The notes under the pieces are model-generated. The model made no database searches, was not told the origin of the DNA, and worked only from the letters and a program-made list of their open reading frames with translations. Below are positions 17,808 to 57,469 of a stretch of 64,000 bases of DNA, one piece after another (position 1 is the stretch's first letter; each line of letters starts with the position of its first letter). Source of the DNA: Escherichia phage slur09; sequence record NC_028840.1, one strand, 5' to 3'. Position numbers and translations under genes: made by a program.

Positions 17808-17889
17808 TCTCCTTTGCACGCTTTCGTGCCTTCTAAATGCAAAAAGGGGAAGGAGCATAGCCCCCTCCCCTTAGGTTTAATTTACCAGA

Positions 17890-18657
17890 TTATTCAGCAG
17901 CCGCAGCTTTTGCATCCAGTTTAGCACGCTTAGCGGCACCATCATAGTCCTTAGCAACCAGACCACGACGAGACAGCATAGATTTAACACCGCGCTCAGA
18001 TTTACCAGTTTTCTCAGCGATCTCAGCAACAGTCATGTTAACCAGATCCAGACCTTCTAACAGATCTTCACGAGTTTTAGCACTTGAGGTTTCCTGTACC
18101 GGCATAGCAGCGATACGACCTTCACGAAGCAAACTCAGAGCTTTACCACGGATCTGCTTAATATTGCGACCGAAGTGAGCAGCGATAGCTTCAATAGTAG
18201 CACCAGCAATAACCTGATTAACAAAATCAGTTTCTTCATCCGGAGTGAAGGAACGAACAGCAGCAGCTTTTTCAGTTGGTTTAACAGAAGCAGTCATTTC
18301 CAGACTCAGGATCTTACCCTGTACCTGTTTAGCACCGAACTGACCACCAGCTACAGCAGCAGCGATTTCAGCATAGGTATACTGACCAGCATGAGCGTTC
18401 AGGAAATCAACCAGTTCAGCTTCCTGCTCAGGAGTCCACGGGGATTTCTGTACTTCGTTAGCTTTCTGTACTTCAAAACCTTCTTTACGCAGTTTAGAGC
18501 CAACAGAGCGAGCAGTAACATCTTTGCCAGTTTCAGCAGCCAGTTCAGTAGCGATAGCAGCTACTTGTTCTTGAGAGATTACAGAAACACCCAGAGCAGT
18601 GGCTTTTGCTTTCAGAGACTCGGTTACACCTTCTACGTTCCAGTTCAGTTTAGACAT
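17890..18657 (-). CDS. putative DNA-binding protein (D5-like) with internal repeats
   Basis: 255 aa; Ala/Lys-rich with repeated ...IRGKALSLL... segments. Confidence 0.5.
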   Translation of the reverse strand: MSKLNWNVEGVTESLKAKATALGVSVISQEQVAAIATELAAETGKDVTARSVGSKLRKEGFEVQKANEVQKSPWTPEQEAELVDFLNAHAGQYTYAEIAAAVAGGQFGAKQVQGKILSLEMTASVKPTEKAAAVRSFTPDEETDFVNQVIAGATIEAIAAHFGRNIKQIRGKALSLLREGRIAAMPVQETSSAKTREDLLEGLDLVNMTVAEIAEKTGKSERGVKSMLSRRGLVAKDYDGAAKRAKLDAKAAAAE

Positions 18658-19432
18658 TATTATTTTTCTCCAATAGTTCTTTAATCGACAGGATTTCTAT
18701 CCCATTCATTTCGGCTTTCTTATAAGATGAGGAAGAACGTTTTGATTCATCCTCACAGATTAGGTATTTGACGTCTTTGGTAACGGATTTCTTAACCGTA
18801 TATCCTAGACCTTCTAAATAGTTTGTTGCATCCGTTCTATTTGCAAAACCTTGCAAAGATCCGGTAATACATACTGTGATTCCGTTTGGCTGGGCAACTA
18901 AATCATCAGTAATGATAATATTAGCTTTTGCACCTCTGATACCAGTTGAGAATTTCCACGGTAATTCGATAACATCCTTGCCTTGTGGGGAATTTAGCCA
19001 GGCTTTATAGTTTTCTCCAGCCTTGCCGTCAGCCTTCACATCGTGGAAGCTAGTGCAATTTTGGGATAATTTCTTTGCTGCAACCTCTCCAATTAGAGGG
19101 ATTCCTAAAGAACCGAGAACTGAACCAAAGTCAATGTCTCCGCGAACTTTAGTATTTAATTCGCTAATTAACTTAGCGGCAACCTTGCTACCCACGGCTC
19201 TAACCAAATCTTCTTCGGTTAGGTAAAATAGTTCTGAAATCTTCGTCAGCTCCAGCTTCTCAATAGTTTTTGGACCAAAGCCCTTTAACTTCATTTTTGT
19301 ACAGAAGTTCTCAATTAACTTACTTGATTGCGCTGGACAGTTGGACTTATTCCGACAGAATAATTGTCCGTTGACAAGATCTAGCTTAGAACCACAAGAG
19401 GGACATTGTGTTGGAATTTCGATTTTCATCAA
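18650..19432 (-). CDS. ligB: NAD-dependent DNA ligase, C-terminal subunit (Zn finger-HhH-BRCT)
   Basis: 260 aa; CPSCGSKLDLVNGQLFCRN...CP zinc finger followed by HhH and BRCT-like region. Confidence 0.85.
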   Translation of the reverse strand: MMKIEIPTQCPSCGSKLDLVNGQLFCRNKSNCPAQSSKLIENFCTKMKLKGFGPKTIEKLELTKISELFYLTEEDLVRAVGSKVAAKLISELNTKVRGDIDFGSVLGSLGIPLIGEVAAKKLSQNCTSFHDVKADGKAGENYKAWLNSPQGKDVIELPWKFSTGIRGAKANIIITDDLVAQPNGITVCITGSLQGFANRTDATNYLEGLGYTVKKSVTKDVKYLICEDESKRSSSSYKKAEMNGIEILSIKELLEKNNNV

Positions 19433-19459
19433 ATTTCTTCCTTATCAATTTATATAAAT

Positions 19460-19488
19460 ATTATAGCAAGTATTTAAGCATTTAGCAA
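19460..19488 (-). promoter_or_regulatory. T5-type promoter (minus strand) between the two ligase ORFs
   Basis: rc TTGCTA-N17-TATAAT in the roughly 200-bp spacer. Confidence 0.6.
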
Positions 19489-19631
19489 CTACAATTTTAA
19501 CTAACTTTGCTTACCCTCACCATAACTTTCTATCCCTCAACTGAATGATAATAGTATATACCTAAGCGGCGAAAATGTCAATAACCACTTTATAATTCCG
19601 ATATGGTAGATGGGTAGCAAAGGGTTATGTA

Positions 19632-20603
19632 TTAATCGTATACTCGCTCTACTATGCACGGGATTACACCACCAGCACGAATCACTCGAATCTGGCAACC
19701 GATCTCTAGATCAAGAGAGTTAATATAATCAACGTTATTAAGAGTCGCTTTAACAATTGTAGCATCATCAATAATTACCGGTTCGAAATAACCAACTGGA
19801 GTTACTTTACCAGAAGCCCCTACCTGCCATTCAACTTTAGTAAGAGTTGTAATCTCGCCTTCTTCATCCTCTTTAATAGCGAATGCTCCACGAGGGAATT
19901 TATTAGTCCAGCCTTCGCGGAAGAATTTGTTGTTATCATTAATACGAACAACTTTACCGTCCGTCGGAATCCATTTAAAGAAGGAACGCACATTAACAAC
20001 TGTTAAGAAGTTCTCATTCTCCAGCCAAAGCATATCTTTTAAATATGCTTCTGTAATACCTACAGATTCAGCAGAACACTGGATACCATATGCAACGAAG
20101 ATTAAACCACCTTCCCCGATACGTTGTACGAAATCATCGCTATCTTTTAGGTTAATAGCACCAGAGGCAAAGTTACGTTTATTTTCTACTTCTTTTGTAA
20201 TTAGAACTTCACCAGTGATTTGAGTAGGTATTTTTTGGGAAATCTTTTTAGGGATATTCAGCAATCTTACGTTGCTTGTGACATCATTTCCCAGAATACC
20301 ATTGCCACGAGTTAGTGCTTGAACAAATTCTCCATTAATATATAACAGAGAAATCGCACAACCATCTAACTTATCAGTTTCTACCTGACCTAATGGGTTG
20401 AATGGGGGTTTATCTCCACGATTATAATAAACTTTCTGTAAAGAATACATACGATATAGATGTGGAATATCACCCTTAGGTCCGATCTCTTCTTCTAATG
20501 GGAAGCGTTTTACCAGGCAATCATACTCCTCATCAGAGATTAAAGACATACCTTGATAATATGCTTCTTGACAGCGTTTAATAAAGTCTTTTACATTAGT
20601 CAT
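19632..20603 (-). CDS. ligA: NAD-dependent DNA ligase, N-terminal subunit (adenylation and OB domains)
   Basis: 323 aa; KLDG adenylation motif (ETDKLDGCAISLLY) and LigA-type adenylation domain. Confidence 0.85.
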   Translation of the reverse strand: MTNVKDFIKRCQEAYYQGMSLISDEEYDCLVKRFPLEEEIGPKGDIPHLYRMYSLQKVYYNRGDKPPFNPLGQVETDKLDGCAISLLYINGEFVQALTRGNGILGNDVTSNVRLLNIPKKISQKIPTQITGEVLITKEVENKRNFASGAINLKDSDDFVQRIGEGGLIFVAYGIQCSAESVGITEAYLKDMLWLENENFLTVVNVRSFFKWIPTDGKVVRINDNNKFFREGWTNKFPRGAFAIKEDEEGEITTLTKVEWQVGASGKVTPVGYFEPVIIDDATIVKATLNNVDYINSLDLEIGCQIRVIRAGGVIPCIVERVYD

Positions 20604-20634
20604 TTATTTATATCTCTCATCAATTTATATAAAT

Positions 20635-20663
20635 ATTATATAATAAAACTGAGTTGAAAGCAA
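20635..20663 (-). promoter_or_regulatory. T5-type promoter (minus strand) upstream of ligA
   Basis: rc TTGCTT-N17-TATAAT. Confidence 0.55.
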
Positions 20664-20690
20664 ATACATTTATAAAGAAAAAGCCAAGAA

Positions 20691-20999
20691 CTAGGCATTC
20701 TTGGCTTTGAGTTCTTCAGCTCGTTTCTGTACTTCATGTAAAACCTCAGATTCGCTAAGAATCTGTGTAAACGCATAGAAAAGCTGCGATGTTGTTTCTA
20801 GGGTGTAAGGAAAAGAGAAGCCAGATTTCGTTGGAAACCATTCATCATTAATATCAAGAAGCCAGTAACGAATACCCATGTATAGATTCCCACGAAATTC
20901 AGATACTGTTAGTCTTACTTGTTCTCCCTCCTTCTCCCAAAGTATGATGGACTGGTCATCAACGTGTCCTTCATAGTTTTGATTTACCTGTTCGCTCAT
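20691..20999 (-). CDS. hypothetical protein
   Basis: ORF track, 102 aa. Confidence 0.5.
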   Translation of the reverse strand: MSEQVNQNYEGHVDDQSIILWEKEGEQVRLTVSEFRGNLYMGIRYWLLDINDEWFPTKSGFSFPYTLETTSQLFYAFTQILSESEVLHEVQKRAEELKAKNA

Positions 21000-21018
21000 T
21001 TACATATCCCAAATACAC

Positions 21019-21039
21019 AAAAAGCCCCATATAGGGGCT
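21019..21039 (-). terminator. terminator-like hairpin (GCCCC-ATATA-GGGGC)
   Basis: GC stem-loop with T-run on the minus strand between ORFs. Confidence 0.45.
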
Positions 21040-21049
21040 AATTGGTTTC

Positions 21050-21346
21050 TTATCGGCCTACTGGAGAAGCACGATCTAACTCTGATTGGAGGCTAGTCAC
21101 ACGACGGACTTTTTCGACAGGAATAAAACGGAAGCTATCATTAGTACGAGAGAAGACAAGGATCTCATCATCTTTCGCTTTACGAATACGTTCACGTTTA
21201 ATACGCTCAGCCAGATATTTATCTTGGGCTGGATCAAATTCCATCGTACCCTGAAGGTACGTGGTTCCTTTCTGACGAAGTTTCTCGTAATGAAGATAAA
21301 ACTCACCAAATTTTTCACATTGTGCGATAATTTCAGCTTTGGTCAT
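21050..21346 (-). CDS. hypothetical protein
   Basis: ORF track, 98 aa. Confidence 0.5.
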   Translation of the reverse strand: MTKAEIIAQCEKFGEFYLHYEKLRQKGTTYLQGTMEFDPAQDKYLAERIKRERIRKAKDDEILVFSRTNDSFRFIPVEKVRRVTSLQSELDRASPVGR

Positions 21347-49194: not shown

Positions 49195-49383
49195 GTGGAA
49201 TTATACATAGTTTATGTTGTGTTTATTCAAGATAGAGAATACCCTGATGAATATAAACAAGGATATAGGTTAGCCAGAGCTACTTCTGAAGCCCAAGCTA
49301 TGGATAAGGTGGCAGATTATATGATTACAGTAGAAAACGTACACTATATCGACTACCTTGAAGCCTCAAAAGTAATTGACTAA
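49195..49383 (+). CDS. hypothetical small protein (GTG start)
   Basis: ORF-track ORF 49048..49383 overlaps two tRNAs at its 5' end; in-frame GTG after AGGGGA lies downstream of the tRNAs. Confidence 0.3.
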   Translation: MELYIVYVVFIQDREYPDEYKQGYRLARATSEAQAMDKVADYMITVENVHYIDYLEASKVID

Positions 49384-49392
49384 GGAGACTAT

Positions 49393-49578
49393 ATGTCTAA
49401 GTTTCAAGAACTCAAGCAAGAGCTAGAAGAGTGTGCCTGCCCTGAGTGTAGAGGAATTGGTGAAAGTTCTGATGCAGAAGCAGGAGATACTTTTTGCAAT
49501 ATCTGGGTTTGCCCAAATTGCAATGGTACAGGTATTAATCCTAACTGTGGTATTTCCCTAGATATTGAACGAGGATAA
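49393..49578 (+). CDS. hypothetical zinc-ribbon mini-protein
   Basis: 61 aa; CACPEC...CPNC. Confidence 0.45.
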   Translation: MSKFQELKQELEECACPECRGIGESSDAEAGDTFCNIWVCPNCNGTGINPNCGISLDIERG

Positions 49579-49679
49579 TACCTGTGAAACTAAAAGATTA
49601 TTATATTGGTTGGTTTGTGGGACTAGTAGTAGGATTTTCACTAGGCTATAATATGTATCAACTAATAAACTGATTACAT

Positions 49680-49756
49680 GGGGGTGTAATCGAATTGGCA
49701 TAGGTACTGGACTTAAAATTCAGGTTTTGTGGGTTCGAATCCCACCACCCCTACCA
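49680..49756 (+). tRNA. tRNA with Leu anticodon TAA on a short-variable-arm (type I) scaffold
   Basis: Acceptor GGGGGTG/CACCCCT, A73, D-loop AATTGGCAT, anticodon arm CTGGA-CTTAAAA-TTCAG, 5-nt variable loop, T-arm GTGGG-TTCGAAT-CCCAC. Confidence 0.6.
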
Positions 49757-49772
49757 AATTAAGGAAATAAGA

Positions 49773-49943
49773 TGTATAGACATCCACCTCCGCCAACACG
49801 TCGTTCTAGAGAAGTTATTCTCATGGAATTGACTAAAAACTTCAAGGCAACTCTTGAAGATAGAGATCTAGGCACGGATGAAGACATTGATTTTATTTGT
49901 AGACTATTAAAGATGAAACTGGAGAAACAACATGGCTAATCCT
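49773..49943 (+). CDS. hypothetical small protein (56 aa)
   Basis: ATG after AAGGAAATAAG; below ORF-track length cutoff; stop overlaps the next ORF start. Confidence 0.4.
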
Positions 49944-50138
49944 GAAATTACCGCACAACGTTTCATGCTTAAAGGCATGATTGCTGAGGCAGGTATAACT
50001 CAAGAGGTTGCAGATTTTCATAAGCAATTTCTTGACATTATAACTCTAGCTAAAGAGACTGGAGAAAAAGAACACGGAGCAGCAATTATGGCTATATCTC
50101 TTATTAGTCTAGACTTGGCTGAAGAGTCTGGAGTTTAG
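49932..50138 (+). CDS. hypothetical protein
   Basis: ORF track, 68 aa. Confidence 0.45.
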   Translation: MANPEITAQRFMLKGMIAEAGITQEVADFHKQFLDIITLAKETGEKEHGAAIMAISLISLDLAEESGV

Positions 50139-50168
50139 CTCCTCCAAACAGAATTTTTAAAAATGTAC

Positions 50169-50198
50169 TTGCCTTTTGCTTTAAATTTCTGGTATAAT
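50169..50198 (+). promoter_or_regulatory. T5-type promoter (TTGCCT -35)
   Basis: TTGCCT-N18-TATAAT. Confidence 0.5.
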
Positions 50199-50228
50199 AG
50201 TTATATAAATTGATGAAGGAGTTAACGA

Positions 50229-50504
50229 ATGCAAAATCGTGTTATAGCAACTGGTATTGAAAGTGCAATCTGTAAATCCTGGGAAGGCTGGGAAGGTGAG
50301 ATTGAATGGCTTTATTTCTACGATGTAGAACTTCTGCCGGAAGTTAAAACTAAATGTGTTGAAGCTGGCATGGCTCCAGATGCAAAAGCTGATATTGATA
50401 TTTCAATGTCTGAACTTAAAGGTCGTGTAATTACTGTTAGTGATGAGGGTGAAGAAGTTTTCGAACTTCCATTCTCCTTAACTGTCACTCCTAAGTTCGA
50501 CTAA
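50229..50504 (+). CDS. hypothetical protein
   Basis: ORF track, 91 aa. Confidence 0.5.
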   Translation: MQNRVIATGIESAICKSWEGWEGEIEWLYFYDVELLPEVKTKCVEAGMAPDAKADIDISMSELKGRVITVSDEGEEVFELPFSLTVTPKFD

Positions 50505-50527
50505 CTAATACAGCACTGAGCAAGTTC

Positions 50528-50567
50528 TTTAAAATTTGACTTGCTCAGTGCCATAAAACTTGATATA
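50528..50567 (+). terminator. long hairpin (13-bp stem GCACTGAGCAAGT/ACTTGCTCAGTGC) whose 3' arm overlaps the -35 of the next promoter
   Basis: Perfect 13-bp inverted repeat; TTGACT -35 lies inside the 3' arm; TATAAT follows 17-18 bp later. Confidence 0.55.
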
Positions 50568-50634
50568 ATATTTATCTAATTTGGAAACATATTTAAAAGT
50601 GTTTAAATGAGGCTTTTTGAATACTTCTAAATAT

Positions 50635-50722
50635 GGGCGTTTATTCCGTAAGTGGTAGCGGAGGGGATTGTAAATCCCTGGTCATTGCGACTCGAGTGGT
50701 TCGACTCCATTAACGCCCACCA
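50635..50722 (+). tRNA. tRNA-Tyr (anticodon GTA), long variable arm
   Basis: Acceptor GGGCGTT/AACGCCC, A73, anticodon arm GGGGA-TTGTAAA-TCCCT, long variable arm, encoded CCA. Confidence 0.75.
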
Positions 50723-50739
50723 AATTAAAGGTAAAGGAT

Positions 50740-51231
50740 ATGTATATTGATCGGATAATTCAAGAAGCTGCAAATAGGGGTATTATACAGTTGGGTTCAC
50801 CCGCTGATATAAACAAAGATCTAATATTAGAAAGCCTCACATTTGGTACAGCTAACTTTGGTCGCGATAGTAATCGTCGATATAGCTTGAAGTTATCTGC
50901 ACTATCTTTTATCAAGTATAACAAAAGTATTGGAGAAAAATCCAGCTGTGGTTTTATTTACGCAATAACTAACCCAGCTTGGGATAACTATGTAAAAATT
51001 GGTATGTCTTCTGATCCTAAAACAAGATTAGGAAATTACCAAACCTATTCTCCTTTACGTGATTATAAGTTAATACATTGGTCATTTTGGTTTAATGCTA
51101 GAGAAGCGGAGAAAATGCTTCATAATAGCTTTCCTGAACGGCTTAATGAATGGGTAGTGTTAGACAGAGGTGTAGACGAAATACTTTCCGAGTTTAACAA
51201 TCTATCCAATAAGCAATTTAAGTCCTGTTAG
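50740..51231 (+). CDS. T5orf172-domain protein (GIY-YIG-like, putative homing endonuclease family)
   Basis: 163 aa; GFIYAITNPAWDNYVKIGMS...RL.NYQTYSP motif shared with ORF 54257..54730. Confidence 0.6.
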   Translation: MYIDRIIQEAANRGIIQLGSPADINKDLILESLTFGTANFGRDSNRRYSLKLSALSFIKYNKSIGEKSSCGFIYAITNPAWDNYVKIGMSSDPKTRLGNYQTYSPLRDYKLIHWSFWFNAREAEKMLHNSFPERLNEWVVLDRGVDEILSEFNNLSNKQFKSC

Positions 51232-51298
51232 ACAAACTGGTAAAGTCACTACCCTTTCAAGGTAGGATTTGCGGGTTCGATCCCCGCACAGGACGCCA
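51222..51298 (+). tRNA. tRNA-Glu (anticodon TTC)
   Basis: Acceptor GTCCTGT/ACAGGAC, anticodon arm CTACC-CTTTCAA-GGTAG, T-arm GCGGG-TTCGATC-CCCGC; 5' end overlaps the last codons of ORF 50740..51231. Confidence 0.75.
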
Positions 51299-51306
51299 AT
51301 TTCTGC

Positions 51307-51383
51307 ATTCCTAGAGTGTTACTGGACAGCATGTCGGTCTCCAAAACCGTACGGTCTAGGTTCGAGTCCTAGTAGGTTTGCCA
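51307..51383 (+). tRNA. tRNA-Trp-like (anticodon CCA) with two U-U mismatches in the acceptor stem
   Basis: Anticodon arm CGGT-CTCCAAA-ACCG, T-arm CTAGG-TTCGAGT-CCTAG, acceptor ATTCCTA/TAGGTTT pairs 5 of 7. Confidence 0.45.
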
Positions 51384-51389
51384 AAATTT

Positions 51390-51464
51390 GCACCTTTAGC
51401 TGAGATGGATTAGCGCTTGCCTGAAGAGCTTGAGAGGTTCGTTCGATTCGAACAGGGTGCACCA
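51390..51464 (+). tRNA. tRNA-Phe (anticodon GAA)
   Basis: Acceptor GCACCTT/AGGGTGC, anticodon loop CTGAAGA, T-arm GTTCG-TTCGATT-CGAAC; anticodon stem has two U-U mismatches. Confidence 0.6.
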
Positions 51465-51481
51465 ATTTGAAGGAGCTGCTG

Positions 51482-51754
51482 ATGCATCCTGAAAACTTCT
51501 TTATTTACTGCGCTGATAAGTCGCTGAAACGTAGAATTAACAAAGTCTATCATTATCGTGCTAGTCAACAGCCTTATGTATATGCTTTTGACGGTGATCA
51601 CATTCCATTAGAACAATTATCCTGTGATTACATGATATTGAAGAACTTTGATGAGACAAAGATCTCAAGCGTTCATAATCGACAGAATCCATTAACGTGG
51701 AAATATAAGAAGAAAAAGAAAGGCATCAAATTCTTAAAAAATGTAGTTGCTTAG
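51482..51754 (+). CDS. hypothetical protein
   Basis: ATG after AAGGAG RBS (ORF track starts at 51467). Confidence 0.45.
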   Translation: MHPENFFIYCADKSLKRRINKVYHYRASQQPYVYAFDGDHIPLEQLSCDYMILKNFDETKISSVHNRQNPLTWKYKKKKKGIKFLKNVVA

Positions 51755-51775
51755 TTTCCAAAAGTTCTGTATAAT
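51747..51775 (+). promoter_or_regulatory. T5-type promoter
   Basis: TTGCTT-N17-TATAAT. Confidence 0.6.
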
Positions 51776-51804
51776 AATTACATAAATTGAACTGGAGAAG
51801 CAAC

Positions 51805-52029
51805 ATGACAGAACAAGAATTGAATGAACGTAAGCTGGTAATGCTTCGCTTACTAAATATTTTCTCTGGTATGGACGGTGGAATTGACTTTGTTCATCTA
51901 CGTTCTTTCGTAGAAGAAGCCGAAGGCGAATCTATCACTAAAATCCTTAAACACATGGGATTACTTTTAGATGCTGCTAATGTGGCTACTGAATATAAAC
52001 TAGAAGATCTACCGAAGCGTGTTAAATGA
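51805..52029 (+). CDS. hypothetical protein
   Basis: ATG after GGAGAAG (ORF track starts at 51787). Confidence 0.45.
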   Translation: MTEQELNERKLVMLRLLNIFSGMDGGIDFVHLRSFVEEAEGESITKILKHMGLLLDAANVATEYKLEDLPKRVK

Positions 52030-52217
52030 AACGATTAGTTAGATTTAAGTGTTGTGGTTCTGAACATATTTTCACATATCTTCGTGAATTTAAAATGTGT
52101 GATTGTGGTAAATCAGGCTATGACTCAGGAGACGGGTTCTACACCCGTACTCTAGGGAACTTCAATGATCTAGAATTTGAAGATCTCGAAAAACAAGATA
52201 AATCGACCGTTGGCTGA
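52026..52217 (+). CDS. hypothetical zinc-ribbon mini-protein
   Basis: 63 aa; CC...CDC pattern; 3' end overlaps the start of tRNA-Cys. Confidence 0.45.
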   Translation: MKRLVRFKCCGSEHIFTYLREFKMCDCGKSGYDSGDGFYTRTLGNFNDLEFEDLEKQDKSTVG

Positions 52218-52279
52218 ATGGCTTAGGCGAAGGATTGCAAATCCTTTTTATGTGAGTTCAAATCTCATGCGGTCGTCCA
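52204..52279 (+). tRNA. tRNA-Cys (anticodon GCA)
   Basis: Acceptor CGACCGT/GCGGTCG, anticodon arm AAGGA-TTGCAAA-TCCTT, T-arm GTGAG-TTCAAAT-CTCAT, encoded CCA. Confidence 0.75.
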
Positions 52280-52281
52280 AT

Positions 52282-52422
52282 TTGCTGAAAGAATTGTTAA
52301 ATCAATTCAGGCACGCGTAGGAACACTGTCTCCGTAATTGAAAGATGAGGCACGGTTTGGAGAGGTATGCTGCTACACGCTACGGTGCTAACTCCGTCTA
52401 GGTGAAAATCCTAGTCAGCAAT
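52282..52422 (+). ncRNA. tRNA-like RNA (about 141 nt) with 7-bp acceptor stem, D-like arm, T-arm and a roughly 59-nt insertion enclosed by an extended anticodon-type stem
   Basis: Perfect acceptor TTGCTGA/TCAGCAA; T-arm CTAGG-TGAAAAT-CCTAG; D-like hairpin GAATT...AATTC; 9-bp stem GCACGCGTAG/CTACGGTGC enclosing 52321-52379; no encoded CCA. Confidence 0.4.
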
Positions 52423-52431
52423 ATAAATTTA

Positions 52432-52514
52432 GGGTCGTTAGCCAAGCGGTTTGGCGGTGGACTGTTAATCCATGTCGAAAGACAACGTAGGTTCGAATCC
52501 TACACGGCCCGCCA
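52432..52514 (+). tRNA. tRNA with Asn anticodon GTT on a long-variable-arm (type II) scaffold
   Basis: Acceptor GGGTCGT/ACGGCCC, G73, D-arm GCCA/TGGC, anticodon arm GTGGA-CTGTTAA-TCCAT, 13-nt variable arm with GTC-GAAA-GAC hairpin, T-arm GTAGG-TTCGAAT-CCTAC. Confidence 0.6.
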
Positions 52515-52616
52515 AATTCTGTGTAGAGTTAAGTAAACCGGTAGCCAACCAGCTATCATTGCTGACATCGAATTCAGCCACAGATACCATTTTCATTAAT
52601 AACTGAGGAAACAAGC

Positions 52617-52802
52617 ATGTCCAAGAATGTAATTGCACAGTTAGAAGTTCATCGTGATAGCACTATCAACAATATTGAAGTTGAGAAGAAATACATCGAA
52701 GAACTTAAACATGATATACTAGTAAGTCTTAATCGTCTTAATGTACGAAAAGACTTTCTTAAAGAACTTAATGCAGCTATTGAAAAACTCAAAGCTGAGT
52801 AA
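52617..52802 (+). CDS. hypothetical protein
   Basis: ORF track, 61 aa. Confidence 0.45.
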   Translation: MSKNVIAQLEVHRDSTINNIEVEKKYIEELKHDILVSLNRLNVRKDFLKELNAAIEKLKAE

Positions 52803-52811
52803 ATGAATTAT

Positions 52812-52888
52812 GCGACCGGGGCTGGCTTGGTAATGGTACTCCCCTGTCACGGGAGAGAATGTGGGTTCGAATCCCATCGGTCGCGCCA
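52812..52888 (+). tRNA. tRNA-Asp (anticodon GTC)
   Basis: Acceptor GCGACCG/CGGTCGC, anticodon arm CTCCC-CTGTCAC-GGGAG, T-arm GTGGG-TTCGAAT-CCCAT, encoded CCA. Confidence 0.75.
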
Positions 52889-52914
52889 AACTAAACTAGC
52901 ACGAGAAATATGCT

Positions 52915-53262
52915 ATGATTAATGCTAAAGAAGAATTGTTACTTGCCCTAAAGAATACTAATTCTGAAGTTAAGTGTATTAAGATAGAATTCGGTTATTA
53001 TGGGGACAAAGAAGTTTGGGTATTACCCGTAGGTTATACAGAAAAAGATATTGAAGATTTTCTAAATAATCTAGACTTTAAATATGATTCTGGTTTCGGT
53101 GGACAATTGCTTTATGGTAACGTATGGTTTACTGATGGAACTTGGTTAGAACGTGGTGAATATGATGGTTCTGAATGGTGGGAATATAAGACTACACCAG
53201 CAATTCCAGAGGAATGTCGAACAATTAATGGTGAAGTAGATCATACATTACTATTAAATTAA
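52915..53262 (+). CDS. hypothetical protein
   Basis: ORF track, 115 aa. Confidence 0.5.
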   Translation: MINAKEELLLALKNTNSEVKCIKIEFGYYGDKEVWVLPVGYTEKDIEDFLNNLDFKYDSGFGGQLLYGNVWFTDGTWLERGEYDGSEWWEYKTTPAIPEECRTINGEVDHTLLLN

Positions 53263-53384
53263 CAAAATTTCAGTGCAGAACACGGAGCTAGCAATTCGGA
53301 AGTGCCGACTCATGATAGGCTGCCTATGTACTTGCGAAGCGGTCGTGTCCAAGACTCGGACTCTTGCACTGAAAACAATCAAAC

Positions 53385-53505
53385 ATTCTAGCGTGGTTGA
53401 TGGGGAAACCAGCTTGGCTAGGGCAGAAGCTCGTTCGATTCGAGTGAAAGAATGGTTCTCGTAAGTCCGCACAAGTGATAACAGGTTCGAGTCCTGTCTA
53501 GAATG
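53385..53505 (+). ncRNA. tRNA-like RNA (about 121 nt) with a roughly 53-nt insertion in the anticodon arm
   Basis: Perfect 7-bp acceptor ATTCTAG/CTAGAAT; D-arm TGGT/ACCA with GG-containing loop; anticodon-type stem CTTG/CAAG enclosing 53418-53470; T-arm ACAGG-TTCGAGT-CCTGT. Confidence 0.4.
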
Positions 53506-53514
53506 ACACTATAA

Positions 53515-53637
53515 AGTTTACTTATTATGTAGGTTCCGATAGATCGGCGGGTCTATTCTGGCATTTAAGAGAGGTCTCGCAAACTTCTTTGTCAGCCGTG
53601 GGGTTGATAGCCTCCAGGTGGCCTACACAATAAGTAA
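53515..53637 (+). repeat. 17-bp inverted repeat (TTTACTTATTATGTAGG / CCTACACAATAAGTAAA, one mismatch) flanking an 89-bp core
   Basis: Arms at 53515-53531 and 53621-53637 are reverse complements with a single mismatch; no ORF inside. Confidence 0.6.
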
Positions 53638-53654
53638 ATTTATTAAAAATTCAT

Positions 53655-53683
53655 TTGCTATTCTGCTTAATTATCTGTATAAT
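53655..53683 (+). promoter_or_regulatory. T5-type promoter
   Basis: TTGCTA-N17-TATAAT. Confidence 0.6.
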
Positions 53684-53715
53684 ATATTTTATAAAGTGAA
53701 GAGAAGGAAAGCAAA

Positions 53716-53913
53716 ATGAAAAAAGTTTTACTGCTGTCTGTATTCCTACTCACTGGTTGTTTTAAACTTGACTCAACCATTAATAAAGAGTATGAATTTG
53801 CTAAAAATTTCTGTGGCGGAGAGAGTAATATAAAGAATTTCTACATATATAGTACAATTCCTAGTACCGTTTATTGTGTAGACGGACGAATTATTAATAT
53901 TCCTCCACAATAA
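53716..53913 (+). CDS. small lipoprotein (lipobox LLTGC)
   Basis: 65 aa; MKKVLLLSVFLLTGC signal peptide with lipobox Cys. Confidence 0.55.
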   Translation: MKKVLLLSVFLLTGCFKLDSTINKEYEFAKNFCGGESNIKNFYIYSTIPSTVYCVDGRIINIPPQ

Positions 53914-53922
53914 AAGAATTAA

Positions 53923-53998
53923 CAGTGCGTAGCGCAGTTGGTAGCGTGGGAGCCTTGGATGCTTCGGGTCGCAGGTTCGAGTCCTGCCGCACTGACCA
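53923..53998 (+). tRNA. tRNA-Pro (anticodon TGG)
   Basis: Acceptor CAGTGCG/CGCACTG, D-arm GCGC/GCGT, anticodon arm GGAGC-CTTGGAT-GCTTC, T-arm GCAGG-TTCGAGT-CCTGC, encoded CCA. Confidence 0.8.
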
Positions 53999-54004
53999 AA
54001 CAAT

Positions 54005-54082
54005 TGCGGGTTAGATCTCTGGTAGAGATCGCTAGTCTCATAAGCTAGAAAGAGGTAGGTTCGATTCCTGCACCCGCTTCCA
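54005..54082 (+). tRNA. tRNA with CAT anticodon (Met/Ile2/initiator candidate), U1-U72 mismatch
   Basis: Acceptor TGCGGGT/ACCCGCT (first pair U-U), D-arm GATC/GATC, anticodon arm CTAGT-CTCATAA-GCTAG, T-arm GTAGG-TTCGATT-CCTGC. Confidence 0.6.
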
Positions 54083-54102
54083 TTTTAATAGAGGATTTCG
54101 AA

Positions 54103-54267
54103 ATGAAAGTATTTCGATTAGTAGTAAGTGACAAACGTTTAGGTAAGAATACCTCAAAATCCTTACTTGCTCATTATGGAAAAGACGAGAAAGAAGTAAT
54201 GGCGGAGTTTGGGATTAATCACCCTTACTTGAAAGTTCACTCTATTAAGGAAGTTTATGCTTATTAA
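54103..54267 (+). CDS. hypothetical small protein (54 aa)
   Basis: ATG shortly after the tRNA; below ORF-track cutoff; stop overlaps the start of ORF 54257. Confidence 0.35.
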   Translation: MKVFRLVVSDKRLGKNTSKSLLAHYGKDEKEVMAEFGINHPYLKVHSIKEVYAY

Positions 54268-54730
54268 CAAGGTGCTTCAAGCTCTAGATCTTCCAGAGCT
54301 CTTTACTATTACCGACTCCTTAATACATCGGTATATGGAAAAGTATAATGAAATCTCTGGTAAAAAAGGGAAACTAAAATCCTCAGAATTTAAGTTCTGT
54401 TATAGAATGGCAGCATTAAACCTCTTAAAGTATAAGAGGGAGCATAAAATTCCTATAACAGAAGGATTTGTCTATGTAATAGGTAATCCAGCATGGCCTG
54501 GACTATATAAGATAGGCATGACAGTAGATGTGAACGAAAGACTGTCTAGTTATCAAACATATTCGCCTTATCGTGATTACAAGTTATACCATTTCAGATT
54601 CTCCTCAGACAAGAGAAGAACTGAAAAAGCATTACATAACCTTCTGAAAGACTACAAAATATCAGGAGAATGGTTTGAAGTACCTCTGTTAGACGCCTTC
54701 AAACTATTAGTAGAAAATTTGGATTGCTAA
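54257..54730 (+). CDS. T5orf172-domain protein (GIY-YIG-like, putative homing endonuclease family)
   Basis: 157 aa; GFVYVIGNPAWPGLYKIGMT...RLSSYQTYSP motif, paralog of 50740..51231. Confidence 0.6.
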   Translation: MLINKVLQALDLPELFTITDSLIHRYMEKYNEISGKKGKLKSSEFKFCYRMAALNLLKYKREHKIPITEGFVYVIGNPAWPGLYKIGMTVDVNERLSSYQTYSPYRDYKLYHFRFSSDKRRTEKALHNLLKDYKISGEWFEVPLLDAFKLLVENLDC

Positions 54731-54798
54731 CTCAACTGGATAAGAGTACCGGACCTTTAATCCGTCAGTTCTGGGTTCGAATCCCAGGCAATCCACCA
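54721..54798 (+). tRNA. tRNA-Lys (anticodon TTT)
   Basis: Acceptor GGATTGC/GCAATCC, D-arm ACTC/GAGT, anticodon loop CCTTTAA, T-arm CTGGG-TTCGAAT-CCCAG, encoded CCA. Confidence 0.8.
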
Positions 54799-54816
54799 AT
54801 TTCAAGAAAAACTCAG

Positions 54817-54845
54817 TTGCTTGATGCTTAATTTCTTGTTATAAT
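54817..54845 (+). promoter_or_regulatory. T5-type promoter driving a 1.2-kb ORF-free tRNA/ncRNA transcript
   Basis: TTGCTT-N17-TATAAT; no ORF of 60 aa or more until 56023. Confidence 0.6.
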
Positions 54846-55083
54846 ATTTATATAAATTGATGAGGAGAAATCCTCATCATAGTTCACTAAGGTATTAGCT
54901 CGACCTAGGACTGGCTGCCAAAAAGCACGATCCCTTCTACTTGGGAGGAGTTCTAGATTAGTCCACTAGATTCAGTGGCAACTGAGTAGTGTATCGGGTT
55001 TGCGAGATGACGTAGTTCCTTCCGCTCGAAGCGAAGGTGCTGTAGTTACGCCGAGCTAATAGCCTTAGTAAACTAAAGAATTT

Positions 55084-55162
55084 GGGGAATGGGTCTGCAT
55101 GGAGTGGACACCTCGCTTGCACCGAGGACATCAGGACGGTTCGATTCCGTTATTCTCCACCA
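55084..55162 (+). tRNA. tRNA-Ala (anticodon TGC)
   Basis: Acceptor GGGGAAT/ATTCTCC (G3-U70 wobble), anticodon arm CCTCG-CTTGCAC-CGAGG, T-arm GACGG-TTCGATT-CCGTT, encoded CCA. Confidence 0.65.
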
Positions 55163-55167
55163 AATAC

Positions 55168-55244
55168 GCGTGATTGATGGAATTGGCATACATACCGTCC
55201 TTAGAAGTCGGGTTTTGAGGGTTCGAATCCCTTGTCACGCACCA
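55168..55244 (+). tRNA. tRNA with Leu anticodon TAG on a short-variable-arm (type I) scaffold
   Basis: Acceptor GCGTGAT/GTCACGC, A73, D-loop AATTGGCAT, anticodon arm CCGTC-CTTAGAA-GTCGG (one U-U), T-arm GAGGG-TTCGAAT-CCCTT; paralogous to the tRNA at 49680. Confidence 0.6.
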
Positions 55245-55356
55245 AATTTGATGGTCAGAGTAAATTAAACCTACTATCTCGGTTGAGCTGTTTTAATGGG
55301 TTCGAATCCCAGCGAGGCGTAACTGCCTGGTGTGATAGAGGCATCATCTTATTATT

Positions 55357-55447
55357 GGAAGAGCAAATCGAATTGGCGACGAAAACCGCTTGGAAAGTGG
55401 CTGACTGGTAAAACGGCTTGAGAGTTCAAATCTCTCCTCTTCCGCCA
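55357..55447 (+). tRNA. tRNA-Ser (anticodon GGA), long variable arm
   Basis: Acceptor GGAAGAG/CTCTTCC, G73, anticodon arm CCGC-TTGGAAA-GTGG, long variable arm, T-arm GAGAG-TTCAAAT-CTCTC, encoded CCA. Confidence 0.65.
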
Positions 55448-55459
55448 AACAATTTATAT

Positions 55460-55554
55460 GGTAGGTCAATCCAATGGCTGGCGCTGGACTCCGACTTGAA
55501 ATCGGTTGATCGTAGTGATACGGTGTAAGGGTTCGATCCCCTTACCTACCTCCA
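55460..55554 (+). tRNA. tRNA-Ser (anticodon TGA), long variable arm
   Basis: Acceptor GGTAGGT/ACCTACC, anticodon arm CCGA-CTTGAAA-TCGG, long variable arm, T-arm AAGGG-TTCGATC-CCCTT, encoded CCA. Confidence 0.65.
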
Positions 55555-55559
55555 AGTCT

Positions 55560-55691
55560 TGAAGTATGCCGGAATCGGTAGACGGGGCTGCCTAAAAGGT
55601 TTACAGGGAACATCCACTCCTTGCAACATACCTCATAAAGCGGCTGAGATAAATGGTCTATCTCGTGAAGGTTCAAGTCCTTCTGCTTCTT
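55560..55691 (+). ncRNA. tRNA-like RNA (about 132 nt): type II-like scaffold with a roughly 48-nt insertion in the anticodon arm
   Basis: Acceptor TGAAGTA/TGCTTCT (6 of 7 pairs, U1-U72), D-arm CCG-GAATCGGTAGA-CGG, anticodon-type stem GCTGC/GCGGC enclosing 55592-55639, variable hairpin GAGATA/TATCTC, T-arm GAAGG-TTCAAGT-CCTTC; no CCA. Confidence 0.35.
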
Positions 55692-55802
55692 GATACATCT
55701 ATGGCTCAAAGTGTAACGGTGCTATTTGATGCTCTTAGTAAGACTTTCCCGACATGCGTTCGGGAGTAAGCTGCTAAGGCTAGAGTAGAAGAGTTTCTGA
55801 GA

Positions 55803-55925
55803 GCCGCCACAATTGAAAATTCGTACTCGTCTTGAGCTGCGTGCAATAGGAGATAACTTGATTAGTATTCTAGAACATGCTAATTGAGGATGGTTTCGCT
55901 AACCCTGCGAGTTTTCAATTGTGGC
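55803..55925 (+). repeat. 14-bp perfect inverted repeat (GCCACAATTGAAAA / TTTTCAATTGTGGC, extendable to about 18 bp with one mismatch) flanking a 95-bp core; 3' arm overlaps the 5' end of tRNA-His
   Basis: Arms at 55803-55816 and 55912-55925 are exact reverse complements. Confidence 0.55.
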
Positions 55926-55997
55926 TATATCATAATTGGTTAATGATCCTGATTGTGAATCAGGCCTATGTGGATTCGAATTCCACTAGCCACCCCA
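55921..55997 (+). tRNA. tRNA-His (anticodon GTG)
   Basis: Acceptor GTGGCTA/TAGCCAC, anticodon arm CCTGA-TTGTGAA-TCAGG, T-arm GTGGA-TTCGAAT-TCCAC, encoded CCA. Confidence 0.8.
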
Positions 55998-56022
55998 AAT
56001 TAACTTAAATAGGAAATAAAAT

Positions 56023-56220
56023 ATGGCTGATTTCTGCAAACAATGCTCCATTGATATGTGGGGCAGAGATACTGGTGATCTTTCTGGTTTGATTACAGAA
56101 GCTGAGGTCAAAGAAGGTTATGGTGCAGTTGTGATTTGCGAAGGGTGCGGAGTTATTCGAGTAGATCATGAAGGCAAACGTTTAGAAGAACCGGAAAACT
56201 TAGGAGAAACAAATGAGTAA
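56023..56220 (+). CDS. hypothetical zinc-ribbon mini-protein
   Basis: 65 aa; CKQCS...CEGCG. Confidence 0.45.
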   Translation: MADFCKQCSIDMWGRDTGDLSGLITEAEVKEGYGAVVICEGCGVIRVDHEGKRLEEPENLGETNE

Positions 56221-56449
56221 TGCTTTAATTAGTGAAATTATGTTAACACGTCTTGCAGAACTGCAAACTCTTCGAGATGAATCTCAGAATAACTTATCCT
56301 ACCATAAACAAATGGTAGATACTCTTACTACTCGTATTGATACTTACGAGCGTGATATTGCAGCATTACAAGCTCTCTTCTCTGTATCAGCACCAGATAC
56401 GTTAGAACAGCCTGCTGTATCCCAGCCAGTAGAAACAGCGTCTAGTTAA
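56213..56449 (+). CDS. hypothetical protein
   Basis: ORF track, 78 aa. Confidence 0.45.
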   Translation: MSNALISEIMLTRLAELQTLRDESQNNLSYHKQMVDTLTTRIDTYERDIAALQALFSVSAPDTLEQPAVSQPVETASS

Positions 56450-56458
56450 TAGCATTCT

Positions 56459-56534
56459 TGGGATGTAGATCAATTGGCAGATCGTCGGCCCCTGACTCCG
56501 AAGGTTCCTGGTTCGATCCCAGGCACTCCAGCCA
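56459..56534 (+). tRNA. tRNA-Gln (anticodon CTG), non-canonical anticodon arm
   Basis: Acceptor TGGGATG/CACTCCA (one A-C mismatch), D-arm GATC/GATC, anticodon region TCGGC-CCCTGAC-TCCGA (C at position 33), T-arm CCTGG-TTCGATC-CCAGG, encoded CCA. Confidence 0.5.
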
Positions 56535-56540
56535 AATAAT

Positions 56541-56616
56541 TGGAGAGTAGTGTAACGGTTAGCACAACGGCCTTTGACTCCGTTAATGGTAGGTTCGATT
56601 CCTCCTTCTCCAGCCA
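56541..56616 (+). tRNA. tRNA-Gln (anticodon TTG)
   Basis: Acceptor TGGAGAG/TTCTCCA, anticodon arm ACGGC-CTTTGAC-TCCGT, T-loop TTCGATT, encoded CCA. Confidence 0.65.
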
Positions 56617-56624
56617 AATAATAA

Positions 56625-56700
56625 GCGGTTAAGCACACGGGTTGTGTCGCAGGCCTTCCAAGCCTCGCTGAGTAGGGTTCGATTCCCTCTAGCCGCTCCA
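56625..56700 (+). tRNA. tRNA-Gly (anticodon TCC)
   Basis: Acceptor GCGGTTA/TAGCCGC, D-arm CACA/TGTG, anticodon arm AGGC-CTTCCAA-GCCT, T-loop TTCGATT, encoded CCA. Confidence 0.7.
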
Positions 56701-56716
56701 ACTTTAAGGAAACATT

Positions 56717-56968
56717 ATGCACGTTTTTGAGTTTCGTAATAAAAGTACCGATAAACGGGTTATTGTTATTGGAGAAACATACCGAGCATACGAACAAACT
56801 GACGGCTCTGTTATCCTGAATGATGAGAAAGGAGGTTTTAGCTTTTATCCAGAAGAACCTTATGAAGAGTTTCGAAAACAATTTAACCTAGACTGGAGAA
56901 AGCATTTAAACACTGTTGCTTCATCTGTAGTATTGCCAACTACCAGTACTGTACTCTCTAATGGCTGA
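56717..56968 (+). CDS. hypothetical protein
   Basis: ORF track, 83 aa. Confidence 0.45.
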   Translation: MHVFEFRNKSTDKRVIVIGETYRAYEQTDGSVILNDEKGGFSFYPEEPYEEFRKQFNLDWRKHLNTVASSVVLPTTSTVLSNG

Positions 56969-57125: not shown

Positions 57126-57133
57126 CGGGTTCT

Positions 57134-57220: not shown

Positions 57221-57234
57221 ATTTAAGGACTATT

Positions 57235-57402: not shown

Positions 57403-57410
57403 AAATTCAT

Positions 57411-57439: not shown

Positions 57440-57469
57440 ATTTATATAAATTAATGAGAGGGAAGCCAA

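What the first reader, a model, noticed from the sequence alone, without database searches (positions are those of the whole stretch)
18650..20603. NAD-dependent DNA ligase split into two ORFs with an internal promoter
The adenylation/OB half (19632..20603) and the Zn-finger/HhH/BRCT half (18650..19432) are separate ORFs about 200 bp apart, with a consensus promoter in the spacer. This implies a two-subunit ligase or a disrupted gene and may mark an excised or decayed mobile insertion.
Basis: partly seen in the sequence, partly recalled or inferred. Interest (0 to 1): 0.35.

Follow-up and report, generated by a model that had tools for sequence, protein, structure and literature searches.

The report
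Phage T5's known two-part DNA ligase
This is the well-known ligA/ligB gene pair of T5-like phages, a DNA-sealing enzyme made as two separate proteins with strong promoters between the genes; it is intact, conserved and already described, not a broken gene.

Summary
On the minus strand, ligA (19632..20603, 323 aa: domain Ia, adenylation, OB) and ligB (18650..19429, 259 aa: Zn finger, HhH, BRCT) are separated by a 202-bp non-coding spacer. The spacer holds two sigma-70 promoters, not one. The window is a T5-like phage, and its spacer is 99.5% identical to T5, whose GenBank record annotates ligA, ligB and promoters "P-K 28b" and "P-K 28a" at these positions.

The split is not decay or an artefact.
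- More than 420 phage genomes share it.
- It lies at the same OB/Zn-finger linker in every Demerecviridae genus sampled and in distant metagenomic relatives.
- Both halves are under purifying selection (dN/dS 0.02-0.22).
- PDB 9HU3, [quoted passage not shown], matches LigA at E=3e-103 and LigB at E=2e-80.

I found no intron, intein, inverted repeat or homing-endonuclease remnant in the spacer.

Extra findings:
- A T5-type promoter lies directly before ligB in all 10 split lineages read.
- About 10 fused ligases of 555-578 aa exist. The two whose contigs I looked up (P0160, P0225) sit in T5-like gene context.

Verdict: already known, low interest.

The parts
19632..20603 (-). [quoted passage not shown] Contains domain Ia (YY..ISDEEYD), the nucleotidyltransferase domain with KLDG motif I (K78) and the OB fold.
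   Evidence: ORF. Pfam PF01653 and PF03120. K78 aligns with E. coli LigA K115, and residues 214-320 align with E. coli 284-390. Matches 9HU3 chain A at E 3e-103. Annotated ligA in T5 and BF23.
18650..19429 (-). ligB: NAD-dependent DNA ligase subunit B (259 aa). Contains the Cys4 Zn finger (C9, C12, C25, C31), the HhH domain and BRCT. The start is the ATG at 19429.
   Evidence: Residues 3-122 align with E. coli LigA 402-529, and 169-253 with 585-666. Matches 9HU3 chain B at E 2.2e-80. An AF2 model (pLDDT 87.6) has 9hu3_B and 2owo among its best PDB matches.
19430..19631 (-). 202-bp non-coding spacer between ligA and ligB, filled mostly by two tandem promoters and their leaders.
   Evidence: 97-99.5% identical across Markadamsvirinae, where the flanking CDS are 83-98% identical and dS reaches 0.65. 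Alignment. No significant RNA fold (z -0.67). No Rfam hit.
19553..19581 (-). Upstream spacer promoter TTGACA-17-TATACT, corresponding to T5 'promoter P-K 28b'.
   Evidence: 11/12. T5 annotation. The hexamers and initial transcribed sequence are conserved in Tequintavirus, Epseptimavirus, Sugarlandvirus and Myunavirus.
19460..19488 (-). Proximal ligB promoter TTGCTA-17-TATAAT with extended -10 TG, corresponding to T5 'promoter P-K 28a'.
   Evidence: T5 and AKFV33 annotations. An equivalent TTGCTn-17/18-TATAAT site lies at the same distance from ligB in all 10 split lineages read.
19437..19443 (-). Shine-Dalgarno AAGGAAG of ligB, 7 nt before the ATG.
   Evidence: Read directly from the sequence. 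Conserved in the alignment.
20635..20663 (-). ligA promoter TTGCTT-17-TATAAT. It is followed by the same 22-25-nt leader (TATAATATTTATATAAATTGAT) as the ligB promoter.
   Evidence: Sequence. Direct repeat 19441-19465 / 20616-20640. The motif occurs 8 times in the window against 0 expected. A promoter is annotated here in T5, AKFV33 and BF23.
20680..20708 (-). Terminator-like hairpin at the end of the PC4-like gene, just upstream of the ligA promoter. It marks the start of the ligA transcription unit.
   Evidence: A terminator is annotated at the equivalent place in AKFV33.
17890..18657 (-). D5 gene (DNA-binding transcription/replication factor). It overlaps the ligB stop by 8 nt (ATGTCTAA), so it is co-transcribed with ligB and probably translationally coupled to it.
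   Evidence: Annotation in T5 and BF23.
17844..17872 (-). Strong terminator-like hairpin (13 pairs, 8 GC) after D5, the probable end of the ligB-D5 unit.

Best explanation
This is the ligA/ligB locus of a T5-like phage (Tequintavirus). It encodes a heterodimeric NAD+-dependent DNA ligase. The ancestral one-chain enzyme is cut in the linker between the OB fold and the Zn finger.

LigA (domain Ia, adenylation, OB) carries the catalytic lysine and the NAD+-binding residues. LigB (Zn finger, HhH, BRCT) supplies the DNA-binding half of the clamp. By inference, the two polypeptides assemble on nicked DNA to do what E. coli LigA does as one chain: seal Okazaki fragments and possibly the characteristic T5 genome nicks.

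Transcription, also by inference, runs as follows. The ligA promoter (20663..20635) gives a transcript that can read through into ligB, since there is no terminator between them. The two tandem strong T5 promoters in the spacer (P-K 28b and P-K 28a) add transcripts that start at ligB and continue into the overlapping D5 gene, ending at the hairpin 17872..17844. LigB and D5 can therefore be made at a different level from LigA.

Shown here: gene structure, domain content, conservation, purifying selection, and homology to a solved heterodimer. Inferred: that the window's own proteins dimerise and ligate, and that the promoters fire as described.
For: [quoted passage not shown]
- The spacer is 99.5% identical to T5, where ligA T5.116, ligB T5.117 and promoters P-K 28b and P-K 28a are annotated at the same places.
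- The same split with the same synteny (ligA, ligB, D5, helicase, primase) occurs in Sugarlandvirus, Myunavirus, Novosibvirus, Thalassavirus, Pogseptimavirus, Shenzhenvirus and other Vibrio phages, and in distant metagenomic contigs.
- There are no internal stops in 17 genomes. dN/dS is 0.02-0.16 for ligA and 0.05-0.22 for ligB.
- The break lies at one alignment column in the OB/Zn linker.
- Catalytic K78 aligns with E. coli K115, and the Cys4 Zn finger is invariant.
- PDB 9HU3/9I5I chains A and B match LigA (E 3e-103) and LigB (E 2.2e-80). Chain B is 100% identical to Providencia phage PR1. The entry is titled 'PR1 phage heterodimeric DNA ligase in complex with 21-mer nicked DNA containing phage nick sequence'.
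Against: - No biochemical data for the T5 or window proteins were found in the searchable literature.
- The paper behind 9HU3 could not be read, so the dimer interface and any requirement for both subunits are taken from the entry title only.
- Promoter activity is not measured here. The names P-K 28a/b come from the T5 GenBank record. I believe from memory that they derive from functional promoter cloning by the Bujard laboratory, but I did not verify this.
- HhH matches in Pfam fall below the curated cut-off.
Confidence: 0.9

Rival explanations
1. The gene is disrupted: a once-continuous ligase gene was broken and is decaying, or only one half is still functional.
For: Two ORFs with a non-coding gap look like a broken gene at first sight. 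Fused relatives of 555-578 aa exist.
Against: Both halves are intact in every one of 17 genomes compared, spanning about 45-99% protein identity, with dN/dS well below 1. More than 100 clusters at 50% identity of stand-alone LigB proteins exist. Each half has its own promoter, SD and start codon. A homologous pair was crystallised as a heterodimer on DNA.
Confidence: 0.02
2. The spacer is the scar of a mobile element (homing endonuclease gene, group I intron or intein) that inserted into the ligase gene and was later lost or decayed, leaving the gene split.
For: T5-like phages carry many homing endonucleases (PMC4319617). Klebsiella phage Roth50 has a homing-endonuclease-like ORF a few hundred bp upstream of ligA. 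The gap accepts inserted genes in other genera: 1-3 small ORFs in RP7, PG07, 70E37, River4 and bastian.
Against: There is no Rfam intron or other RNA family in the region, no significant fold and no inverted repeats. LigA ends 4-7 residues after the OB fold and LigB begins 6-8 residues before the first Zn-finger Cys, so no intein remnant fits. None of the gap ORFs in other genera hits an endonuclease family: they are of unknown function or DprA-like. The most distant split relatives have gaps of only 49-65 bp that hold little more than a promoter.
Confidence: 0.07
3. The two proteins have partly independent jobs. LigB (Zn-HhH-BRCT), expressed from its own strong promoters together with D5, acts as a nick- or DNA-binding or recruitment factor on its own, in addition to or instead of completing the ligase.
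For: A dedicated promoter lies directly before ligB in all 10 split lineages read. ligB overlaps D5 and shares its transcript. The spacer is more conserved than the coding flanks. In a homologous archaeal ligase (LigN), a C-terminally truncated form comprising only domain Ia, adenylation and OB still self-adenylates (PMC1684257).
Against: ligA and ligB are always adjacent in the contigs inspected. The solved PR1 entry is a heterodimer on nicked DNA. There are no data showing a LigA-independent activity.
Confidence: 0.1
4. Sequencing or assembly artefact: the gene is really continuous.
For: None found.
Against: The same 202-bp spacer occurs in more than 420 independently sequenced phage genomes at 95-99.6% identity. 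The spacer length is not a multiple of three, and it carries its own promoters and RBS.
Confidence: 0.005

Closest known systems
Bacteriophage T5 ligA (T5.116) / ligB (T5.117), NAD-dependent DNA ligase subunits A and B, with promoters P-K 28b and P-K 28a between them (GenBank AY543070; Wang et al. 2005, cited in PMC1684257)
   Same: Same genes, same order, same 202-bp spacer (201/202 identical) and same two promoters. The flanking PC4-like gene and D5 are also the same.
   Different: Only a few percent nucleotide divergence in the coding parts (96% identity; LigA 99.1% and LigB 96.9% at the protein level). Some close relatives (T5_ev212, SSP1, bobsandoy) carry an extra 62-90-aa ORF just upstream of ligA that this window lacks.
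PR1 phage heterodimeric DNA ligase (PDB 9HU3, 9I5I; Providencia phage vB_PreS_PR1, Demerecviridae)
   Same: Two chains with the same domain partition. Chain A is 339 aa (LigA match E 3e-103). Chain B is 248 aa (54% identity to LigB in the structural alignment). It was solved bound to nicked DNA.
   Different: It comes from a different genus. PR1 LigA has small insertions in the adenylation domain and LigB has a shorter HhH-BRCT linker. The window's proteins have not been studied themselves.
Bacterial one-chain LigA (E. coli LigA, PDB 2OWO; T. filiformis 1DGS/1V9P)
   Same: Same domain order (Ia, NTase, OB, Zn, HhH, BRCT), the KxDG catalytic lysine and the Cys4 Zn finger.
   Different: A single 671-aa polypeptide, against 323 + 259 aa here. 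The phage adenylation domain is about 30 aa shorter. The chain is broken between the residues equivalent to E. coli about 393 and 400.
Fused compact ligases of 555-578 aa from metagenomes (e.g. P0225, P0160)
   Same: 33-41% identical over the LigB part and of compact size. For the two looked up (P0160, P0225), the genomic neighbourhood is T5-like; on the P0225 contig the order is ligase, D5-sized gene, DnaB, primase, PolA.
   Different: One ORF with a 5-20-aa OB/Zn linker and no intergenic promoter gap. Contexts of the other eight fused forms were not checked.

Membership tests
NAD+-dependent DNA ligase (LigA family, EC 6.5.1.2) | Nucleotidyltransferase domain with motif I KxDG catalytic lysine | tested here: met
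   KLDG at LigA 78-81 aligns with E. coli LigA K115-G118. Pfam PF01653 E 2.7e-23.
NAD+-dependent DNA ligase (LigA family, EC 6.5.1.2) | N-terminal domain Ia with NMN-binding residues (the feature that gives NAD+ specificity) | tested here: met
   LigA 15-28 reads YYQGMSLISDEEYD and aligns with T. filiformis YRYYV..ISDAEYD (local alignment of low score). The identity of the essential residues (E. coli Y22, D32, Y35, D36) is from my own knowledge.
NAD+-dependent DNA ligase (LigA family, EC 6.5.1.2) | OB-fold domain following the NTase domain | tested here: met
   PF03120 E 3.8e-22, LigA 252-321.
NAD+-dependent DNA ligase (LigA family, EC 6.5.1.2) | Cys4 zinc finger, HhH domain and BRCT domain | tested here: met
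   C9, C12, C25 and C31 are invariant in 29 homologues. BRCT PF00533 scores 35 bits against a cut-off of 21.3. HHH_2 scores 24.3 bits, below its cut-off of 27, but the AF2 model matches the 2OWO C-terminal half.
NAD+-dependent DNA ligase (LigA family, EC 6.5.1.2) | All domains on one polypeptide | tested here: not met
   Two ORFs separated by 202 bp, with a stop codon, promoters, an RBS and a new start.
NAD+-dependent DNA ligase (LigA family, EC 6.5.1.2) | NAD+-dependent nick-sealing activity | not testable with these tools
   Needs an enzyme assay.
T5-type heterodimeric phage DNA ligase (LigA/LigB; PR1 9HU3) | Adjacent ligA and ligB genes broken at the OB/Zn-finger linker | tested here: met
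   Same alignment column as in 7 other Demerecviridae genera.
T5-type heterodimeric phage DNA ligase (LigA/LigB; PR1 9HU3) | Full-length homology of each subunit to the corresponding chain of the solved heterodimer | tested here: met
   LigA 4-323 aligns with 9hu3_A 11-339 at E 3e-103. LigB 1-255 aligns with 9hu3_B 1-244 at E 2.2e-80.
T5-type heterodimeric phage DNA ligase (LigA/LigB; PR1 9HU3) | Synteny in the T5 early replication module (PC4-like, ligA, ligB, D5, helicase) | tested here: met
T5-type heterodimeric phage DNA ligase (LigA/LigB; PR1 9HU3) | Physical heterodimer on nicked DNA | not testable with these tools
   Shown for the PR1 homologue by the PDB entry title. Not shown for this phage.
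Gene interrupted by a mobile element (group I intron, intein or homing endonuclease gene) | Intron RNA structure, intein blocks or an endonuclease ORF/remnant at the break | tested here: not met
   No Rfam hit, fold z -0.67, no inverted repeats, no extra residues at the junction, and no endonuclease family in the gap ORFs of relatives.

The most novel reading that the evidence does not exclude
The split is not a frozen accident but an adaptive and evolutionarily labile arrangement. The OB/Zn linker serves as a landing pad for a promoter that heads the ligB-D5 transcription unit. Such a promoter is present in all 10 split lineages read, even where the gap is only 49 bp.

The split or fused state has changed several times within the T5-like ligase family. 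At least 6 changes were needed in 100 of 100 NJ bootstrap trees of the LigB region, although the tree is poorly resolved.

This would let the phage set LigB (with D5) at a level or timing different from LigA, possibly giving LigB a nick-binding role of its own.
Probability: 0.2. Interest if true: 0.35.

Novelty: already known. Interest (0 to 1): 0.1.

Why it matters
For genome annotation it matters only as a caution. The two ORFs should be called ligA and ligB, subunits of one enzyme, not a pseudogene. The spacer should be annotated as tandem promoters.

Biologically, the T5 ligase is one of the few natural examples of a DNA ligase divided into a catalytic and a DNA-binding polypeptide. That has already been recognised since the T5 genome paper and now has a solved structure from a relative.

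The parts I found no description of in the sources searched are minor:
- the promoter before ligB is universal in the split lineages read;
- the spacer is unusually well conserved;
- fused relatives exist, two of them confirmed in T5-like gene context.

Tried and rejected
- An Rfam scan of 18000..21200 at a permissive threshold gave only a sub-threshold sRNA hit at a terminator outside the locus.
- Folding the spacer RNA gave no significant structure.
- The repeat search found only the shared promoter/leader repeat and no inverted repeats.
- The mini-ORF in the spacer (ATG GTG AGG GTA AGC AAA GTT AGT TAA, 8 codons) after the P-K 28b-like promoter is rejected as a gene. It is not conserved in Klebsiella or Pectobacterium relatives although the promoter is.
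- Pfam and PHROGs searches of ORFs found in the ligA-ligB gap, or just upstream of ligA, in other phages found no homing endonuclease. There was one DprA-like protein; the rest are of unknown function.
- Literature searches for a paper on the heterodimeric ligase, for 9HU3/9I5I, for promoters PK28a/b and for T5 transcriptomes found nothing usable in the held library.
- The NJ tree of the LigB region is star-like and could not decide whether there was one fission event or several.
- The fused relative P0225 is only about 40% identical to the nearest split pair inspected, so no recent fission or fusion event was caught.
- An 11/12 promoter-like site inside the fused gene of L018 may be chance.
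Full report
**What is there.** On the minus strand, the region holds two ORFs.
- The first, 19632..20603 (323 aa), matches the Pfam NAD-dependent ligase adenylation domain (E 2.7e-23) and the ligase OB fold (E 3.8e-22).
- The second, 18650..19432 as listed mechanically, matches BRCT and, weakly, HhH families. It opens with a Cys-x2-Cys...Cys-x5-Cys zinc finger.
- The likely start of the second ORF is the ATG at 19429, 7 nt after AAGGAAG. This gives the 780-nt gene annotated in T5 and BF23. The spacer is therefore 19430..19631, 202 bp.
- The promoter scan finds two coding-strand sites in the spacer: TTGACA-17-TATACT at 19581..19553 (11/12) and TTGCTA-17-TATAAT with an extended -10 at 19488..19460 (10/12). 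It finds no terminator between the genes.

**Identity of the locus.**
- A 2.5-kb query around the locus matches 469 phage records, and 427 of them cover at least 80% of the query. [quoted passage not shown]
- The spacer alone is 95-99.6% identical in more than 420 records, including phage T5 itself.
- In T5 (AY543070) the genes are ligA (T5.116) and ligB (T5.117). The two spacer promoters are annotated as 'promoter P-K 28b' and 'promoter P-K 28a'. AKFV33 and BF23 also annotate promoters there.

**The split is functional, not decay.**
- tblastn with LigB finds about 1000 phage records.
- I opened one representative each of Sugarlandvirus, Myunavirus, Novosibvirus, Thalassavirus, Pogseptimavirus, Shenzhenvirus and another Vibrio phage group. 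All have ligA, a gap, ligB, D5, then helicase and primase.
- The gap ranges from 170 bp to 1.36 kb. In some genera it holds 1-3 small ORFs.
- None of the 17 genomes compared has an internal stop in either gene.
- Nei-Gojobori dN/dS against the window is 0.02-0.16 for ligA and 0.05-0.22 for ligB.
- In a joint alignment with fused ligases, the break falls at one column. It lies in the linker between the end of the OB fold (IRAGGxIPxI) and the zinc finger (IxIPTxCPxCGS), with no extra residues on either side.

Mapping on solved structures gives the following.
- LigA K78 (KLDG) corresponds to E. coli LigA K115.
- LigA 214-320 corresponds to E. coli 284-390.
- LigB 3-122 corresponds to E. coli 402-529.
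- LigB 169-253 corresponds to E. coli 585-666.

The decisive comparison is with PDB 9HU3/9I5I.
- Chain A (339 aa) matches LigA at E 3e-103, and chain B ('DNA ligase subunit B', 248 aa) matches LigB at E 2.2e-80.
- Chain B is 100% identical to Providencia phage PR1 / PSTCR5, another member of the Demerecviridae.
- An AF2 model of the window's LigB (pLDDT 87.6) has 9hu3_B as its best PDB match.
- The entry title is 'PR1 phage heterodimeric DNA ligase in complex with 21-mer nicked DNA containing phage nick sequence', released 2026-01-14.

The two-subunit reading is thus established for the family. For this phage it is an inference from 54% (LigB) and comparably high (LigA) sequence similarity.

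**The spacer.**
- Within Markadamsvirinae the spacer is 97-99.5% identical to the window. The flanking coding DNA is 83-98% identical, and synonymous divergence reaches 0.2-0.65. The spacer is therefore under constraint.
- The alignment shows that the constraint sits on both promoters, including their AT-rich upstream parts and initial transcribed sequences. These are also conserved in Klebsiella Sugarlandvirus and, more loosely, Pectobacterium My1.
- The first 60 nt or so after the ligA stop is variable. In phage bastian it is replaced by a 64-aa ORF.
- The proximal ligB promoter and the ligA promoter (TTGCTT-17-TATAAT, 20663..20635) are followed by the same 22-nt leader. That leader occurs 8 times in the window against none expected. 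It fits the T5 promoter consensus quoted in the AKFV33 record.
- There is no Rfam family, no significant RNA fold and no inverted repeat.
- The locus is bounded by a hairpin terminator upstream of the ligA promoter (20708..20680) and another after D5 (17872..17844). D5 overlaps the ligB stop by 8 nt.

The most economical reading has two parts. Transcripts from the ligA promoter read through into ligB. The two spacer promoters add ligB-D5 transcripts. This is inferred, not measured.

**Beyond the known facts.**
- An exhaustive search of 1.8 billion cluster representatives with LigB returned the best 150. Of those covering most of the query, 117 are stand-alone LigB-sized proteins (about 230-270 aa), at identities down to about 31% in the list.
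- About 10 of the hits are fused proteins of 555-578 aa, the size expected for LigA plus LigB.
- Two fused examples lie in T5-like neighbourhoods. On the P0225 contig the order is ligase, a D5-sized gene, DnaB, primase and PolA.
- Two distant split examples have ligA directly upstream, with gaps of only 65 and 49 bp.
- Reading the 95 nt before ligB in 10 split lineages shows a TTGCTn-17/18-(TG)nTATAAT promoter ending about 30 nt before the start codon in every one. This includes the lineages with the shortest gaps, and Vibrio phage River4, where three genes lie between ligA and ligB.
- A promoter heading ligB therefore seems as old as the split itself.
- NJ bootstraps of the LigB region required at least 6 split/fused state changes in all 100 replicates. 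However, the tree is star-like at 30-40% identity, so this is only a lead.

**Mobile-element hypothesis.** I found nothing in its favour at the break.
- There is no intron-like RNA and no space for intein blocks.
- The gap ORFs of other genera match no endonuclease family. They have no family match, match PHROG families of unknown function, or are DprA-like.
- A homing-endonuclease-like ORF exists near ligA in Klebsiella phage Roth50, but it is upstream of ligA, not in the gap.
- An ancient insertion event as the origin cannot be excluded.

**Verdict.** The feature is real, correctly located, and correctly suspected to be a two-subunit ligase with an internal promoter. It is the textbook T5 ligA/ligB locus, annotated in hundreds of genomes, noted in the literature since 2005 and now backed by a solved heterodimer structure. 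Novelty: already known. Interest: low.

Noticed in passing
window 17844..17872 (minus strand): The strong terminator-like hairpin after D5 (13 pairs) contains, in its loop, the ATG at 17858 that opens the 507-aa helicase (D6) ORF. Its G-rich 5' arm looks like that gene's Shine-Dalgarno sequence. Either the helicase RBS is sequestered in the hairpin, or the true start lies further downstream.
   Followed up: no
window 19444-19465, 20619-20640, 43075-43096, 50193-50214, 51770-51791, 54840-54861, 57434-57455, 59912-59933: The 22-nt motif TATAATATTTATATAAATTGAT (-10 box plus initial transcribed region) occurs 8 times with at most 3 mismatches, against 0 expected. Two copies are on the minus strand (ligA, ligB) and six on the plus strand in the tRNA region. 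This is consistent with a shared T5 early-promoter/leader cassette.
   Followed up: partly
window 20604..20690; L002 2696-2968, L003 2697-2885, L014 162-362: Between the PC4-like gene and ligA, some close relatives (T5_ev212, SSP1, bobsandoy) carry an extra small ORF of 62-90 aa. Those of T5_ev212 and SSP1 match phrog_35018 and phrog_8267, both of unknown function. The ORF overlaps the ligA start. The window, T5 and BF23 lack it. This indel explains the two-piece megablast hits.
   Followed up: partly
L007 1141-2344 (Vibrio phage River4); L015 1303-1497 (Salmonella phage bastian); L006 2149-2316; L008 1903-2349; L010 2051-2511: The ligA-ligB gap is an insertion hot spot in other genera. River4 has three genes there (88 aa phrog_7775, 126 aa, and a 186-aa DprA-like protein, phrog_768). 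The others have 1-2 small ORFs with no family match. In every lineage whose upstream region was read (RP7, River4, PG07, 70E37), the promoter before ligB is retained downstream of the inserts.
   Followed up: partly
L018 7177-7205 (fused ligase gene 6001-7731): The fused metagenomic ligase P0225 has an 11/12 sigma-70-like site with extended -10 inside its HhH-coding part, on the coding strand, about 540 nt before the D5-sized downstream gene. It could be an internal promoter or chance.
   Followed up: no
window 45391..58219 (plus strand): A cluster of 21 tRNA genes, typical of T5-like phages.
   Followed up: no
(database records): T5-like ligB or spacer sequence appears in records labelled 'Listeria phage LM 4-14-1' and 'Klebsiella phage KPP2018', and in proteins labelled Brucella melitensis, Salmonella enterica or Escherichia coli. 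These are probably contamination or phage reads in bacterial assemblies, or mislabelled hosts.
   Followed up: no
L004 378-902 (Klebsiella phage Roth50): An ORF annotated 'zinc-binding loop region of homing endonuclease' lies between the PC4-like gene and ligA. This shows mobile endonuclease genes near, but not inside, the ligase split.
   Followed up: no
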